Made by a program: the position numbers. Source: Escherichia coli (GTDB lineage: Bacteria > Pseudomonadota > Gammaproteobacteria > Enterobacterales > Enterobacteriaceae). From it: 64,000 nucleotides of DNA. Of this stretch, positions 33,301 through 36,300 are shown in pieces. How positions within the stretch are numbered: position 1 is the first letter of the stretch; the number at the start of each line of letters is the position of its first letter. The stretch lies in NCBI RefSeq assembly GCF_022846255.1, contig NZ_AP025682.1; one strand, 5' to 3'.

Positions 33301-36300
33301 AGATTTATTTTTACCGCGAGCCGGGTCTGTAACTGGCTGACTGCCGGAAAACTGATTTTTACGGTAAAGCCCTCATCCTCCAGGCGGGCATTGATGCGAC
33401 CGGCAATGTTTTCTGTGGCGTACAGGGCCGTGCCACGAAAACCTGTTTCAATCCCGCTGACGATTTTCTCCAGCTCAGGCCGGAACTGTGCTTCAGCCTC
33501 ACGGTGCAGGCTGGTCACGGTCGATTCGATTTGCGTCATCAGTTCAAGGGCTTCCCTGCGATCACTGAATTTTATTTCGGGGCTGTCCGGGGCAAAATCT
33601 CGTTTCCTGTAATCCTCCCGGCCCTGGTTGTTGATACCGGACCATTGAGAAATTTTCCCCCATAATCCGGACTGAGACCTTCGTTGTTCTGCGTCTTCTT
33701 CCTCCAGCATTTGCTGTTCTTTGCGTTTACCGCTTCTGAAATAGTCATTCAGCTCCTCTTCCAGTGAGGTGCAGACCCCCGTCAGTAATTCCCGGGTTTT
33801 AGTATCGATCTCCTCCATGGCCATTCTGACATCAGTGGTCATCTGCTCCTGACAGTCCGCGATTTCCCGGATATCCGCAAGCAGGCTGGTGATATGCGAC
33901 TGCAGTGACTGAATGCTTTGCTGTAGCCCCTGATGGCGTAACAACAGGTATTCACTGATATTTTCTGCATTCTGCATCAGTTTTGCGGCGGCAGAGTCAA
34001 CCGCCAGTGCCGCAGCTCTGGAATGTGAGCTCTGTATGACTTCCGTTATCAGTTGATCGATAAGTGAGCCTTCCCACAGGTCTGTCGCCCCTTCAGTTGC
34101 CAGTTCACTGTCTTTACAGACGTATTCTTTTTTCATGCAACCGAAGGCACCTCTGATAAAATCATCGACCCAGGCTTCATCAACAGGAAGGGTTCCGTTT
34201 TTCCGTAACTCATGAAGCGCACGGTTAGCCAGGTATGCCTGGCGTGAGGATCCGGGATAAACGCGGGAGGCGGGCAGCACATCGCTGTTCAGCATTGCCG
34301 GAACTTTCTGGCGTACGGCATCTGCCCCATCGCCATTGCGGTCTTTCTCATCAAATTTATTGACCAGTACAAACAGGCGGCCGGCTGATACGTCAGCAAT
34401 GGCATTAAGCTCTTTACGGACGTCTTCATCCGCTTTTGAGTTCATCTGGGTGTAATCCATCACAGCCAGAACCGCAGAGGCTTTCTGCAGTTGATCCCGC
34501 ATCATCACTTCCATCTGCGGTTGTCCGGCCTCATTAGGGCCGGGGGTATCCAGCAGTGTGAGTGTTCCCTGGCATGCATCCATCCCCACCAGATGGCTGA
34601 ATTCCACGTCGATCACCGGCAGTTTCTGCACTTCTGCGTATTCATCAAAAGGAAATTCAGTCCCCATTGCCGCAGCAAGACGAACCAGATCGTTTAACGA
34701 TGCCAGTCCGGTAAAGATTTCCTCCTCCCCGTGGTATTCATTTTTGAGCCAGCCATCATCCGTCAGAATATCCAGCAGTTCGCGGGTATCCCCGGTTTGC
34801 TGCAGGGTCTGTGCGACCTGCTGTCCTGCCGGGGTGGCGAGTTTTTCCTGCAGTGTGATTAATAAATTGCGGACAGGCTGAATATGTTCCAGATGGAGAA
34901 CCGGCTCAGTTTTTCCGGGAACGTGGCGGATGAGCGTCGGTACAGAGGTCATGGGGCGGTTACGGTTAGGCAGAATTTCCTGCCCCACAATGGCGTTGAT
35001 GGTGGTTGATTTGCCTGCTTTCATCGTGCCGACAACAGCCAGCACCATCTCCCTGCGGGCGGTTTTGATTTGTTCGCCCTCCAGCTCCTCAATTCTTTTC
35101 AGTGCTTTCTGTTTATCAAAAAGCAGTCTGTTTTCGTTCTTACTGTCAGATAACACATCTGGCTCCTCAACCATTTGCCGGAGCAGATTAATGTTCAGTT
35201 GCAAAAGTCGGTCGGCTTCATCACAAAGCAGGGCGATGTTCTTTTCGTGCATTATTTAACCTTCCTAAGACGCATTTTCATGACAACCACGGAGGAGGTC
35301 ATTTACTACAAACGATCGTTTATAACGATCGATATGATAGTAACGATCGATGTATTCTATTAACTTGAGAAACACAACGCAAGGGGACAACCCGGGTATG
35401 GCTGCGTTTGCATAGTGTTTTCATGGAGTTAAAAATCTGTAACAACAGCCTGGTACATCACCACCGGGTTCAGAAGAAAATCCAGTTCCATACCGCGCGG
35501 GCAACAGAGACCACCGAGTCACGGACGGCACGCAGAACCGTGCGTGCAACAGAGGCAATACAGGCGCTCTCCGCCGTGTCAAATATCCGGTCCACCGCAC
35601 CGGTAAACTGTTCACGGGCCTGAGCGCGGACAGATTCCGTGCGCAGCTCGTCCTGCAGGCGGGTCATCAGGGGACTGGCGGCATGGTCGGGAAGTGCTGT
35701 CATGAGCGCACTGACCAGCGTATCCAGTTCCCAGCCGGTGCGGGCCGATACGGCAACAACCCGATGTACGGGCCGGAACAGACGGAATACCGCCTCCGTT
35801 TTTTCGCGAATGTTCTGTGCCTGTGCGGGAGAAGGCTGAATACCGGCCATATCCCATTCATGGCAGGGCTCCGTTTTATCGGCCTGCATCACCACAAACA
35901 GTACCCGCTGATGTCCCCGGTGCAGGATGTGTCGCCAGAAATACTCATCCACAGACAGGGCACGGTCATCGGCTTTAATCAGCCACAGTACCAGGTCCAG
36001 TTCGGGCAGAATGTCACGGTACAGGGCTTCATACTCTGCATCCCTGTCCCGGCTCTCGCCCACCCCGGGCAGGTCAGTGATAACCATGCTGTGACCATGG
36101 CCATTCAGACGGAAGCGCTGCACTTCCCGGGTGCCGGCGTGAACATCACTGACCGGGGTGATCTCCCCCTGAAACAGCGCATTACAGAGTGAGGATTTAC
36201 CGGCCCCGCTTTTACCCATAATGCCAGGCACGGGTTCGTGACTGGTGAGTTTGCGCAGATGTTCCAGGATGTGACGGGAAAGTGAGTAAGGCAGGGAGGA

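What the first reader, a model, noticed from the sequence alone, without database searches (positions are those of the whole stretch)
35253..35470. Three clustered GATC sites at the 5' end of the dynamin operon: an agn43-type Dam/OxyR phase-variation switch?
The 217-bp intergenic region upstream of the dynamin gene contains three GATC sites within 35 bp (35314, 35327, 35345) in near-repeated aacGATCg units. On the minus strand these lie immediately downstream of a plausible sigma70 promoter (TTGCGT, 17 bp, TAGAAT). That layout, three Dam sites just downstream of +1, is the architecture of the agn43 (flu) switch, where OxyR binding and Dam methylation compete to give ON/OFF phase variation. Here the switch appears retained while the downstream cargo is the dynamin/patatin operon, implying heterogeneous, epigenetically inherited expression of a candidate defence module.
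Basis: partly seen in the sequence, partly recalled or inferred. Interest (0 to 1): 0.72.

Follow-up and report, generated by a model that had tools for sequence, protein, structure and literature searches.

The report
Agn43-type methylation switch before dynamin operon
The DNA just upstream of a dynamin-like/lipase operon in this E. coli island is a diverged copy of the well-known Dam/OxyR on-off switch of the antigen 43 gene, so about a third of E. coli strains probably express this uncharacterised operon only in a heritable subpopulation of cells.

Summary
Three GATC sites (35314, 35327, 35345), each inside ACGATCG, lie 5 nt downstream of TTGCGT-17-TAGAAT on the minus strand, in the 217-bp gap between a yeeP-like GTPase gene and a dynamin-family gene.

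A bare GATC triple is not rare in 64 kb (P about 0.68). Three CGATCG within 31 bp is rare (P about 7e-4).

The core aligns with the K-12 yeeP-flu (agn43) regulatory region: same -10, same -35 spacing, same offset to GATC-I, same 13-bp GATC-II/III spacing. The GATC-I/II spacing is 18 bp instead of 19.

The best OxyR-consensus match in the whole window (16/20, versus 14/20 for K-12 agn43 itself) covers all three GATCs.

Across 27 natural alleles the -35, -10, GATC-I and GATC-II never vary. GATC-III is lost in two alleles.

The island sits at the CP4-44 site, with flu-yeeR replaced by a five-gene unit: dynamin (CrfC/RdcA paralogue), YjcZ/RdcB-like, patatin and two unknowns. The same intergenic region occurs in 1985 of 5426 complete E. 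coli genomes.

I found no paper describing this. No methylation or reporter data exist, so switching is inferred, not shown. The "defence module" label is unsupported.

Verdict: a new member of a known kind, of moderate to high interest.

The parts
35253..35469 (-). Intergenic regulatory region between the yeeP-like GTPase gene and the dynamin-family gene
   Evidence: Present at >=90% identity in about 1980 of 5426 complete E. coli genomes. Followed by the dynamin operon in every locus inspected.
35377..35382 (-). -35 hexamer TTGCGT
   Evidence: Read. Identical to the -35 of the cah-type switch, and aligned with TTGTCC of K-12 agn43. Invariant in 27 alleles.
35354..35359 (-). -10 hexamer TAGAAT, within the invariant block TAATAGAAT
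   Evidence: Invariant across dynamin, flu, cah and Citrobacter cargo types and across 27 dynamin-type alleles. The spacer to the -35 is 17 nt.
35345..35348 (.). GATC-I, the promoter-proximal Dam site; predicted transcription start at its G (about 35348, minus strand)
   Evidence: It has the same 5-nt offset from the -10 as in K-12, where the annotated isrC/flu leader starts at the G of GATC-I. Invariant in 27 alleles.
35327..35330 (.). GATC-II
   Evidence: 18 bp from GATC-I (19 bp in flu and cah). Invariant in 27 alleles.
35314..35317 (.). GATC-III
   Evidence: 13 bp from GATC-II, as in agn43 and as in the GATC pairs of gtr OxyR half sites. Lost in 2 of 27 alleles: L011 AATC and L041 TATC.
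35315..35351 (-). Predicted OxyR tetramer site ATCGATCGTTACTAT-N7-ATCGTTATAAACGAT, overlapping +1 and all three GATCs
   Evidence: It matches the consensus at 16 of 20 positions and is the unique top score in 64 kb on both strands; the next best is 14. K-12 agn43 scores 14/20 in the homologous register. All 27 alleles score 15-17 of 20.
35253..35348 (-). Predicted 96-nt 5' UTR, with a hairpin over GATC-II/III and a second hairpin pairing CCUCCUCC with the Shine-Dalgarno AGGAAGG (35260-35266)
   Evidence: MFE -25.6 kcal/mol, z-score -3.2. This is an inference only. There is no covariation because the leader is nearly invariant.
32856..35252 (-). Dynamin-family GTPase gene (798 aa), a paralogue of CrfC/RdcA (YjdA)
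   Evidence: NCBIfam NF007368 E 1e-166 but below the equivalog cutoff. Pfam Dynamin_N.
31954..32859 (-). YjcZ/RdcB-family gene (301 aa), overlapping the dynamin stop by 4 bp
   Evidence: Pfam PF13990 YjcZ, E 5e-70. RefSeq name.
30887..31957 (-). Patatin-like phospholipase gene (356 aa), with a 4-bp overlap
29642..30859 (-). Two genes of unknown function: 30068..30859 as the maximal ORF (RefSeq calls a 684-nt version) and 29642..30052
   Evidence: No Pfam, NCBIfam or PADLOC family. They are part of the five-gene cluster reported as co-regulated in E. coli MP1 (PMC12922286).
29471..29500 (-). Strong terminator-like hairpin (13-bp stem, T run) that probably ends the five-gene unit
35470..36381 (-). 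yeeP-like GTPase family gene immediately upstream; its 3' end is 97-100% identical to the yeeP that precedes flu and cah

Best explanation
The 35253-35469 region is an agn43-family Dam/OxyR epigenetic switch that drives a five-gene dynamin/YjcZ/patatin unit instead of an Ag43 adhesin. Transcription starts at or next to GATC-I from TTGCGT-17-TAGAAT. When the three GATCs are unmethylated, an OxyR tetramer binds 35315-35351, which overlaps +1. It blocks RNA polymerase and shields the GATCs from Dam (OFF, heritable). When Dam methylates the GATCs after replication, OxyR cannot bind and the operon is transcribed (ON, heritable). The result is a mixed ON/OFF population with rare reversible switching. 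Shown here: the motifs, their homology with agn43 switches, their conservation, and the genomic context. Inferred: OxyR binding, methylation sensitivity, bistability and switching rates.
For: (1) Homology. The yeeP 3' end is 97-100% identical to K-12 and EDL933. The sequences then become unalignable, except for a core from the -35 to about 25 nt past GATC-III. Across four cargo types, the invariant columns are almost only TAATAGAAT and the three CGATC(G) blocks. (2) Geometry. The -35/-10 spacer is 17 nt, the -10 to GATC-I offset is 5 nt, and the GATC-II/III spacing is 13 bp, all identical to agn43. (3) OxyR site. It scores 16/20 and is the single best site in the window, better than K-12 agn43 at 14/20. 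GATC-II and GATC-III flank half-site 2 exactly as in agn43. (4) Constraint. In 27 distinct alleles from 49 sequences, only 1 of the 24 promoter and GATC positions varies, against 17 of 45 other core positions (Fisher p = 0.003). E. albertii keeps all three GATCs despite 4 substitutions inside the site. (5) Context. The island is at the same chromosomal site as CP4-44, with flu-yeeR swapped for the dynamin unit. (6) Circumstantial expression data. In E. coli MP1 a five-gene dynamin/RdcB/phospholipase cluster was the most strongly changed gene set between two isogenic lineages, whatever the medium (PMC12922286). A heritable ON/OFF locus produces exactly this pattern after single-colony bottlenecks, a pitfall documented for agn43 in PMC3764049. 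CFT073's PAI-aspV copy carries the same switch. The agn43 mechanism itself is taken from the literature as summarised in PMC3764049 and PMC2909390.
Against: There are no methylation, OxyR-binding or reporter data for this locus in anything I could search. GATC-I is 1 bp closer to GATC-II than in every agn43 or cah switch examined, so the effect of its methylation on OxyR contacts is unknown. The -35 is weak, and the generic promoter scan does not call this promoter. GATC conservation alone is only marginally significant (1/12 versus 17/45, p = 0.08), and two alleles lack GATC-III. The alleles are related, so column counts are not independent events. The MP1 result has another published reading, prophage-dependent induction, and I did not verify MP1's own sequence.
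Confidence: 0.7

Rival explanations
1. Evolutionary relic. The promoter still works, but the OxyR/GATC module no longer gives bistability. The operon is then expressed uniformly or is regulated conventionally, for example by a prophage- or stress-dependent factor.
For: The 1-bp shorter GATC-I/II spacing is unique to this lineage. Two alleles have lost GATC-III. The dynamin gene is frameshifted in CFT073 and EDL933, which suggests relaxed selection in some lineages. PMC12922286 interprets the expression change as lysogeny-dependent.
Against: The -35, -10, GATC-I and GATC-II are invariant in 27 alleles, while the spacer and inter-GATC positions vary freely. The OxyR match is better than in functional agn43. 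The flanks have diverged beyond alignment while the core is kept.
Confidence: 0.15
2. OxyR acts here as a simple repressor or stress-responsive regulator, and the GATCs are only incidental parts of its half-sites. Expression would then depend on OxyR but would not be heritably ON/OFF.
For: CGATCG resembles the ATAG/CTAT arms of OxyR half-sites, so GATCs could be kept for binding rather than for methylation. The L041 allele changes GATC-III to TATC, which improves the OxyR consensus match to 17/20.
Against: In every characterised case where GATCs sit inside OxyR half-sites (agn43, gtr, opvAB), methylation blocks binding and phase variation results (PMC2909390; PMC3764049). An optimal OxyR arm would be ATAG/CTAT, yet 25 of 27 alleles keep all three sites as GATC.
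Confidence: 0.1
3. Chance cluster of GATC sites with no regulatory meaning.
For: A GATC triple within 31 bp is expected somewhere in 64 kb in about 68% of random placements.
Against: The sites are CGATCG (P about 7e-4 for the cluster). They are homologous in position to those of agn43. They coincide with the best OxyR match in the window and are conserved.
Confidence: 0.01

Closest known systems
agn43 (flu) regulatory region of E. coli K-12 (Dam/OxyR phase variation; CP4-44 prophage)
   Same: It is preceded by the same yeeP GTPase 3' end and lies at the same chromosomal island site. It has the same TAATAGAAT -10, the same 17-nt spacer, the same 5-nt offset to GATC-I and three CGATC(G) sites with 13-bp II/III spacing. 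An OxyR site overlaps +1 and all three GATCs.
   Different: The cargo is a five-gene dynamin/YjcZ/patatin unit, not an autotransporter. The GATC-I/II spacing is 18 bp, not 19. The -35 is TTGCGT, not TTGTCC. The OxyR half-site 1 is closer to consensus. The leader is about 96 nt and unrelated to the roughly 220-nt flu leader (isrC). Sequence between the yeeP stop and the -35 is unalignable.
cah (Ag43/Cah) switch of E. coli O157:H7 O-islands
   Same: It has the identical -35 TTGCGT and the same -10 and GATC layout. The first ~25 nt after GATC-III are similar. In O157 the same dynamin operon lies directly downstream of cah.
   Different: In O157 the switch drives cah, and the dynamin gene follows after a 114-bp gap with no GATC cluster. 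Similarity to the window resumes exactly at the dynamin ATG, so the window arrangement is not a simple cah deletion. The cah site scores only 12/20 for OxyR in my crude scan.
gtr (P22/Salmonella) and opvAB Dam/OxyR switches
   Same: GATC pairs 13 bp apart bracket OxyR half-sites. Methylation blocks OxyR binding, and bound OxyR blocks Dam (PMC2909390).
   Different: Those switches have four GATCs and three or four half-sites upstream of or over the promoter, and OxyR acts as both activator and repressor. Here there are three GATCs downstream of the -10, which predicts pure repression. I saw no sequence homology to them.
RdcA/RdcB (YjdA/CrfC - YjcZ) GTPase pair of E. coli K-12
   Same: The first two cargo genes are paralogues: NF007368 at E 1e-166 and Pfam YjcZ at E 5e-70.
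   Different: The match is below the equivalog cutoff, and PMC12922286 gives about 30% identity. The pair is island-borne, fused into an operon with a patatin lipase and two unknown genes, and placed behind a predicted epigenetic switch.

Membership tests
agn43-type Dam/OxyR phase-variation switch | Sequence homology to the agn43 regulatory region | tested here: met
   The core from the -35 to just past GATC-III aligns with K-12 flu, a second agn43 allele, two cah alleles and two Citrobacter loci. TAATAGAAT and the three CGATC(G) blocks are invariant. The flanks are not alignable.
agn43-type Dam/OxyR phase-variation switch | Sigma-70 promoter with three GATC sites immediately downstream of the -10/+1 | tested here: met
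   TTGCGT-17-TAGAAT-5 nt-GATC-(14)-GATC-(9)-GATC. The GATC-I/II spacing is 1 bp shorter than in agn43. The transcription start is inferred from K-12 isrC/flu annotation, not measured.
agn43-type Dam/OxyR phase-variation switch | OxyR binding site overlapping the GATCs and the transcription start | tested here: inconclusive
   The consensus match is 16/20 at 35315-35351, the unique best in the window, versus 14/20 for the K-12 agn43 site. This is a consensus count only. Binding was not and cannot be tested here.
agn43-type Dam/OxyR phase-variation switch | Purifying selection on promoter and GATC motifs | tested here: met
   1 of 24 motif columns is variable versus 17 of 45 other core columns in 27 alleles (p = 0.003). 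GATCs alone give 1/12 (p = 0.08). GATC-III is lost in 2 alleles.
agn43-type Dam/OxyR phase-variation switch | Location 3' of a yeeP-like GTPase gene in a CP4-44-type island | tested here: met
agn43-type Dam/OxyR phase-variation switch | Dam methylation of the GATCs abolishes OxyR binding; ON and OFF cells differ in methylation | not testable with these tools
   I found no methylome data for this locus in the searchable literature.
agn43-type Dam/OxyR phase-variation switch | Reversible, heritable ON/OFF expression that depends on dam and oxyR | not testable with these tools
   The only evidence is circumstantial: a five-gene dynamin cluster was the top differentially expressed set between two isogenic MP1 lineages (PMC12922286).
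Ag43/Cah autotransporter gene family (cargo) | The gene downstream of the switch encodes a self-associating autotransporter | tested here: not met
   The downstream genes are dynamin family, YjcZ/RdcB family and patatin.
Pap-type Dam/Lrp switch | Two GATCs about 102 bp apart inside Lrp site sets, with a PapI/PapB-type regulator | tested here: not met
   The three GATCs span 31 bp, and there is no second distal GATC in the 217-bp region. The defining feature is stated from established knowledge.
gtr/opvAB-type Dam/OxyR switch | Four GATCs in two pairs, with alternative OxyR sites upstream of or over the -35 | tested here: not met
   There are three GATCs, all downstream of the -10. The architecture of gtr is taken from PMC2909390.
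Known anti-phage defence systems (PADLOC-DB v2: Dynamins/Eleos LeoA-LeoBC, CBASS patatin effector) | Full-length match of the proteins to the system's models | tested here: not met
   Only short weak hits were found: LeoBC at E 8.6e-5 over residues 29-89 of the dynamin, and a phospholipase effector at E 4e-5 over residues 9-73 of the patatin. There was nothing for the other genes.

The most novel reading that the evidence does not exclude
The yeeP-linked Dam/OxyR module is a portable phase-variation cassette. Enterobacterial islands reuse it to make interchangeable cargo bistable: Ag43 or Cah adhesins, a dynamin/YjcZ/patatin membrane-active unit, and small secreted proteins in Citrobacter. On this reading, about a third of E. 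coli strains run a dynamin-lipase system (possibly abortive-infection-like or c-di-GMP-linked) only in an epigenetically inherited subpopulation. Apparent 'regulators' of it, such as prophage carriage in strain MP1, would be clonal ON/OFF artefacts.
Probability: 0.4. Interest if true: 0.75.

Novelty: new member of a known kind. Interest (0 to 1): 0.62.

Why it matters
Dam/OxyR phase variation in E. coli is textbook for one gene family, agn43. If the same switch drives a cytoplasmic or membrane dynamin-lipase operon in about 37% of complete E. coli genomes (UPEC CFT073's PAI-aspV carries the same switch and operon, though its dynamin gene is annotated as frameshifted), three things follow.

- Epigenetic bet-hedging in E. 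coli extends beyond surface antigens to an intracellular module of unknown, possibly phage- or membrane-stress-related, function.
- Transcriptome and phenotype comparisons between 'isogenic' strains will show large spurious differences at this locus unless the ON/OFF state is controlled. The published MP1 lysogen result may be one such case.
- The modular reuse of one switch with different cargos gives a natural system for studying how epigenetic switches are transferred between genes.

The prediction can be tested directly with standard reporters and with existing long-read data.

Tried and rejected
- **Significance of the bare GATC triple.** It is not significant (68% by random placement). 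Only the CGATCG context and the homology make it meaningful.
- **Generic promoter scan.** It does not call TTGCGT-17-TAGAAT. Instead it calls an overlapping TTAATA-18-TATCAT, and it flags the GATC-II/III palindrome as terminator-like. I read the palindrome as the dyad of OxyR half-site 2.
- **Simple deletion of cah or agn43 fusing the switch to the dynamin gene.** Rejected. Similarity to the EDL933 cah-dynamin locus resumes exactly at the dynamin ATG, and the leaders differ.
- **Methylome evidence.** I searched ST131, O111, SMALR, APEC nanopore and other papers. None lists this locus. Wallecha 2002 is not held, and PMC12922286 has no supplements held.
- **Literature for dynamin/CrfC/YjcZ/patatin together with OxyR, GATC or phase variation.** Nothing relevant was found. 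PMC7696260 only shows SNP pile-ups in crfC, rssA and yeeP. I suspect mis-mapping between paralogous island copies, but this was not checked.
- **Defence-system assignment by PADLOC.** Only weak partial hits.
- **Rfam on 35000-35700.** Only a chance IS102 hit at E 0.55, and no IsrC-like RNA.
- **Species-representative scan with the switch pattern.** Only 4 hits: E. albertii, two Citrobacter species and one MAG contig with a cah-type sequence. The exact pattern is therefore narrowly distributed.
- **OxyR-consensus versus N positions within the site.** 3/20 versus 6/17 columns are variable; I ran no significance test on this contrast and draw nothing from it.
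Full report
**1. Observation**

The window has GATC at 35314, 35327 and 35345, each embedded in ACGATCG. These sites lie in the 217-bp gap (35253-35469) between two minus-strand ORFs: a GTPase gene (35470..36381) and a 798-aa dynamin-family gene (32856..35252).

Read on the minus strand, the order is:
- TTGCGT (35382-35377)
- a 17-nt spacer
- TAGAAT (35359-35354)
- ACATC
- GATC-I, then 14 nt, GATC-II, then 9 nt, GATC-III
- about 60 nt of leader with AGGAAGG, then ATG

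A GATC triple alone is not unusual. With 221 GATCs in 64 kb, some triple within 31 bp is expected in about 68% of random placements. The context is unusual:
- Three of the window's 19 CGATCG fall here (P about 7e-4).
- Three of its 6 ACGATCG fall here (P about 2.5e-5).
- The surrounding island is GATC-poor and includes a 5.5-kb stretch with no GATC at all.

The tool's generic promoter scan does not list TTGCGT-17-TAGAAT, because the -35 matches only 3 of 6 positions. The promoter call therefore rests on homology, described next.

**2. What it is homologous to**

I aligned the region to the K-12 yeeP-flu interval (L003).
- The last ~130 nt of the GTPase gene are about 97% identical to yeeP.
- Similarity collapses a few bases after the stop codon.
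- It reappears as a core block. K-12 reads TTGTCC-17-TAGAAT-AAAAC-GATC-15-GATC-9-GATC. The window reads TTGCGT-17-TAGAAT-ACATC-GATC-14-GATC-9-GATC.
- Downstream of GATC-III there is no similarity to the ~220-nt flu leader (isrC).

I then built an eight-sequence alignment covering four cargo types:
- dynamin type: the window and E. albertii
- flu/agn43: K-12 and a second allele
- cah: two alleles
- Citrobacter: two loci

The columns invariant in all eight are essentially TAATAGAAT, CGATC, TATCGATCG and CGATCG, plus the TG of the -35. These are the -10 and the three Dam sites. Everything else between and around them drifts.

The cah-type switch of O157 has the identical -35 (TTGCGT) and shares about 25 nt after GATC-III with the window.

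**3. OxyR site**

I scored the whole window on both strands against the OxyR tetramer consensus ATAGnTnnnAnCTAT-N7-ATAGnTnnnAnCTAT.
- One site stands alone at 16/20: 35315-35351.
- The next best sites score 14/20.
- The top site starts 2 nt after the -10 and contains all three GATCs.
- In the homologous register, K-12 agn43 scores 14/20. Its OxyR site is experimentally established (literature cited in PMC3764049).

Half-site 2 (ATCGTTATAAACGAT) is bracketed by GATC-II and GATC-III exactly as in agn43. The 13-bp spacing is the same one seen for GATC pairs in gtr OxyR half-sites.

The single-base shortening in the dynamin lineage lies between GATC-I and the CTAT arm of half-site 1. The spacing between the two half-sites is therefore unchanged, and the left arm becomes ATCG (3 of 4 consensus positions).

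**4. Conservation**

The 218-bp region is present in 1985 of 5426 complete E. coli genomes, with up to 3 copies per genome. In every locus I opened it is followed by dynamin, RdcB-family and patatin genes:
- seven E. coli genomes, including SMS-3-5, CFT073 and an O157:H7 strain
- E. albertii

A metagenome scan with a 31-mer from the leader returned 42 further loci. Together these give 49 sequences and 27 distinct alleles. In the allele alignment:
- The -35, -10, GATC-I and GATC-II are invariant.
- The 18/13 spacing is fixed.
- GATC-III is changed in two alleles: L011 to AATC and L041 to TATC.
- The -35/-10 spacer, the 4 nt before GATC-I and several inter-GATC positions vary.

Counts of variable columns:

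| Positions | Variable / total | Fisher p versus other core |
|---|---|---|
| Promoter and GATC motifs | 1 / 24 | 0.003 |
| GATC positions alone | 1 / 12 | 0.08 |
| Other core positions | 17 / 45 | (reference) |

All alleles keep 15-17 of 20 OxyR consensus matches. The alleles are phylogenetically related, so these counts indicate constraint but are not exact probabilities.

**5. Context and cargo**

The window is 99.8% identical over 20 kb to E. coli SMS-3-5 and others. There the island abuts tmaR(yeeX)-yeeA-sbmC-dacD-sbcB...hisL, which is the CP4-44 site of K-12. Relative to K-12, flu-yeeR is replaced. The conserved island backbone remains on both sides: yeeP-like GTPase upstream, and DUF932, antirestriction, yeeS, yeeT, cbeA and cbtA downstream.

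The replacement unit contains:
- a dynamin-family GTPase, a CrfC/RdcA paralogue (NF007368, E 1e-166, below the equivalog cutoff; Pfam Dynamin_N)
- a YjcZ/RdcB-family protein (PF13990, E 5e-70)
- a patatin-like phospholipase
- two proteins with no family

The first three genes overlap by 4 bp. A strong terminator-like hairpin follows the fifth gene at 29500-29471. PADLOC gives only weak partial hits, so 'defence module' is a guess, not a result.

Other arrangements of the same switch:
- In O157 (EDL933, TR01) the switch drives cah, and the same dynamin operon follows cah after 114 bp with no GATC cluster.
- The window's similarity to that locus resumes exactly at the dynamin ATG. The window arrangement is therefore not a recent simple deletion of cah but a separate, stable lineage.
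- In Citrobacter braakii and C. amalonaticus, a GTPase gene plus the same switch core precede two small signal-peptide proteins.

The switch thus behaves as a module that travels with different cargos behind the yeeP-like gene.

**6. Mechanism proposed**

By analogy and homology with agn43 (mechanism as summarised in PMC3764049, and PMC2909390):
- OxyR bound to the unmethylated site over +1 represses transcription and protects the GATCs from Dam (OFF).
- Methylation of the GATCs excludes OxyR (ON).
- Each state is inherited, and the state can change when the DNA is replicated.

Shown here: the motifs, homology, geometry, conservation and context. Inferred: OxyR binding, methylation sensitivity, bistability and the transcription start. 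The start is predicted near 35348, from the K-12 annotation that places the leader start at the G of GATC-I.

I put 0.7 on this explanation.

**7. Circumstantial expression evidence**

PMC12922286 compared E. coli MP1 carrying or lacking prophage Kapi1, using two colonies each.
- The five-gene cluster SID94_19700-19720 (dynamin family, RdcB family, phospholipase and two others) was the most strongly up-regulated set in the lysogen, regardless of medium.
- The authors state that regulation of such dynamins has not been described.
- The apparent co-induction of the second (PAI-aspV) copy was flagged by the authors as affected by multi-mapping.

Two lineages separated by single-colony bottlenecks and differing massively at one operon is the expected signature of a heritable ON/OFF locus. 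PMC3764049 documents exactly this pitfall for agn43.

CFT073's PAI-aspV copy has the switch intact. I did not have MP1's sequence, so this link is an inference.

**8. Rivals**

- **Relic switch with conventional regulation (0.15).** Supported by the 1-bp spacing change, the two GATC-III-less alleles and pseudogenised dynamins in CFT073 and EDL933. Opposed by the motif-specific conservation.
- **OxyR-only regulation without epigenetic inheritance (0.1).**
- **Chance (0.01).**

**9. Novelty**

Ten full-text searches found no paper linking this operon, under the names dynamin, CrfC, YjdA, YjcZ, RdcB or patatin, with OxyR, GATC or phase variation. The kind of switch is textbook. The new elements are its presence in front of a non-adhesin, five-gene intracellular operon in about 37% of E. 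coli genomes, and its modular reuse. I rate it a new member of a known kind, with interest about 0.6.

**10. Also seen**

The predicted 96-nt leader folds stably (z = -3.2). One hairpin pairs CCUCCUCC with the Shine-Dalgarno sequence, which could add translational control. The leader is almost invariant, so this cannot be tested by covariation.

Noticed in passing
window 35253-35300 (minus strand): The predicted 5' UTR forms a hairpin in which CCUCCUCC pairs with the Shine-Dalgarno AGGAAGG of the dynamin gene (MFE -25.6 kcal/mol, z -3.2). This is a possible anti-SD translational control element layered on the switch. The two natural variants seen are compatible with the fold: A to G gives a G-U pair, and U to C falls in a bulge. 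There is no real covariation.
   Followed up: partly
window 25647-31139: A 5.5-kb stretch has no GATC at all. It covers the distal genes of the dynamin unit and the DUF932/antirestriction/yeeS-yeeT-cbeA-cbtA backbone. Across 25650-46000, which I take to be the island region, GATC density is 2.3 per kb versus 4.0 per kb in the rest of the window.
   Followed up: partly
L004 (EDL933) 4501-9061; L010 (O157 TR01): In O157:H7 the same dynamin operon sits directly downstream of the phase-variable cah gene, after a 114-bp gap. It may therefore already be under the cah switch by read-through. The EDL933 dynamin is frameshifted.
   Followed up: partly
L013 (Citrobacter braakii) 3977-5200; L015 (C. amalonaticus) 895-1337: The same GTPase plus three-GATC switch core precedes two small signal-peptide proteins (154 and 157 aa) instead of an adhesin or dynamin. 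This is a third or fourth cargo type for the module.
   Followed up: partly
L011 5070-5080 (E. coli DEF10, mouse); L041 (metagenome): Two natural alleles have lost GATC-III: AATC in L011 and TATC in L041. The TATC change raises the OxyR consensus match to 17/20, which might bias the switch towards OFF.
   Followed up: no
L059 (CFT073 PAI-aspV) 30265-33315: CFT073 carries the same switch, but its dynamin gene and the upstream GTPase remnant are annotated as frameshifted. This suggests decay of the cargo in some lineages.
   Followed up: no
window 29471-29500 and 30851-30867 (minus strand): A strong terminator-like hairpin follows the fifth gene, and a weaker one sits right after the patatin gene. 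This suggests a 3-gene core transcript with read-through to 5 genes.
   Followed up: no
L014 (contig labelled Collinsella sp. MAG): This 1.5-kb MAG contig is a cah-type yeeP-switch sequence typical of E. coli. It probably reflects a binning contaminant in that MAG.
   Followed up: no
window 39505-40874 (plus strand): An IS150 copy (orfA/orfB) is inserted in the island about 4 kb upstream of the GTPase gene. The same insertion is present in SMS-3-5.
   Followed up: no
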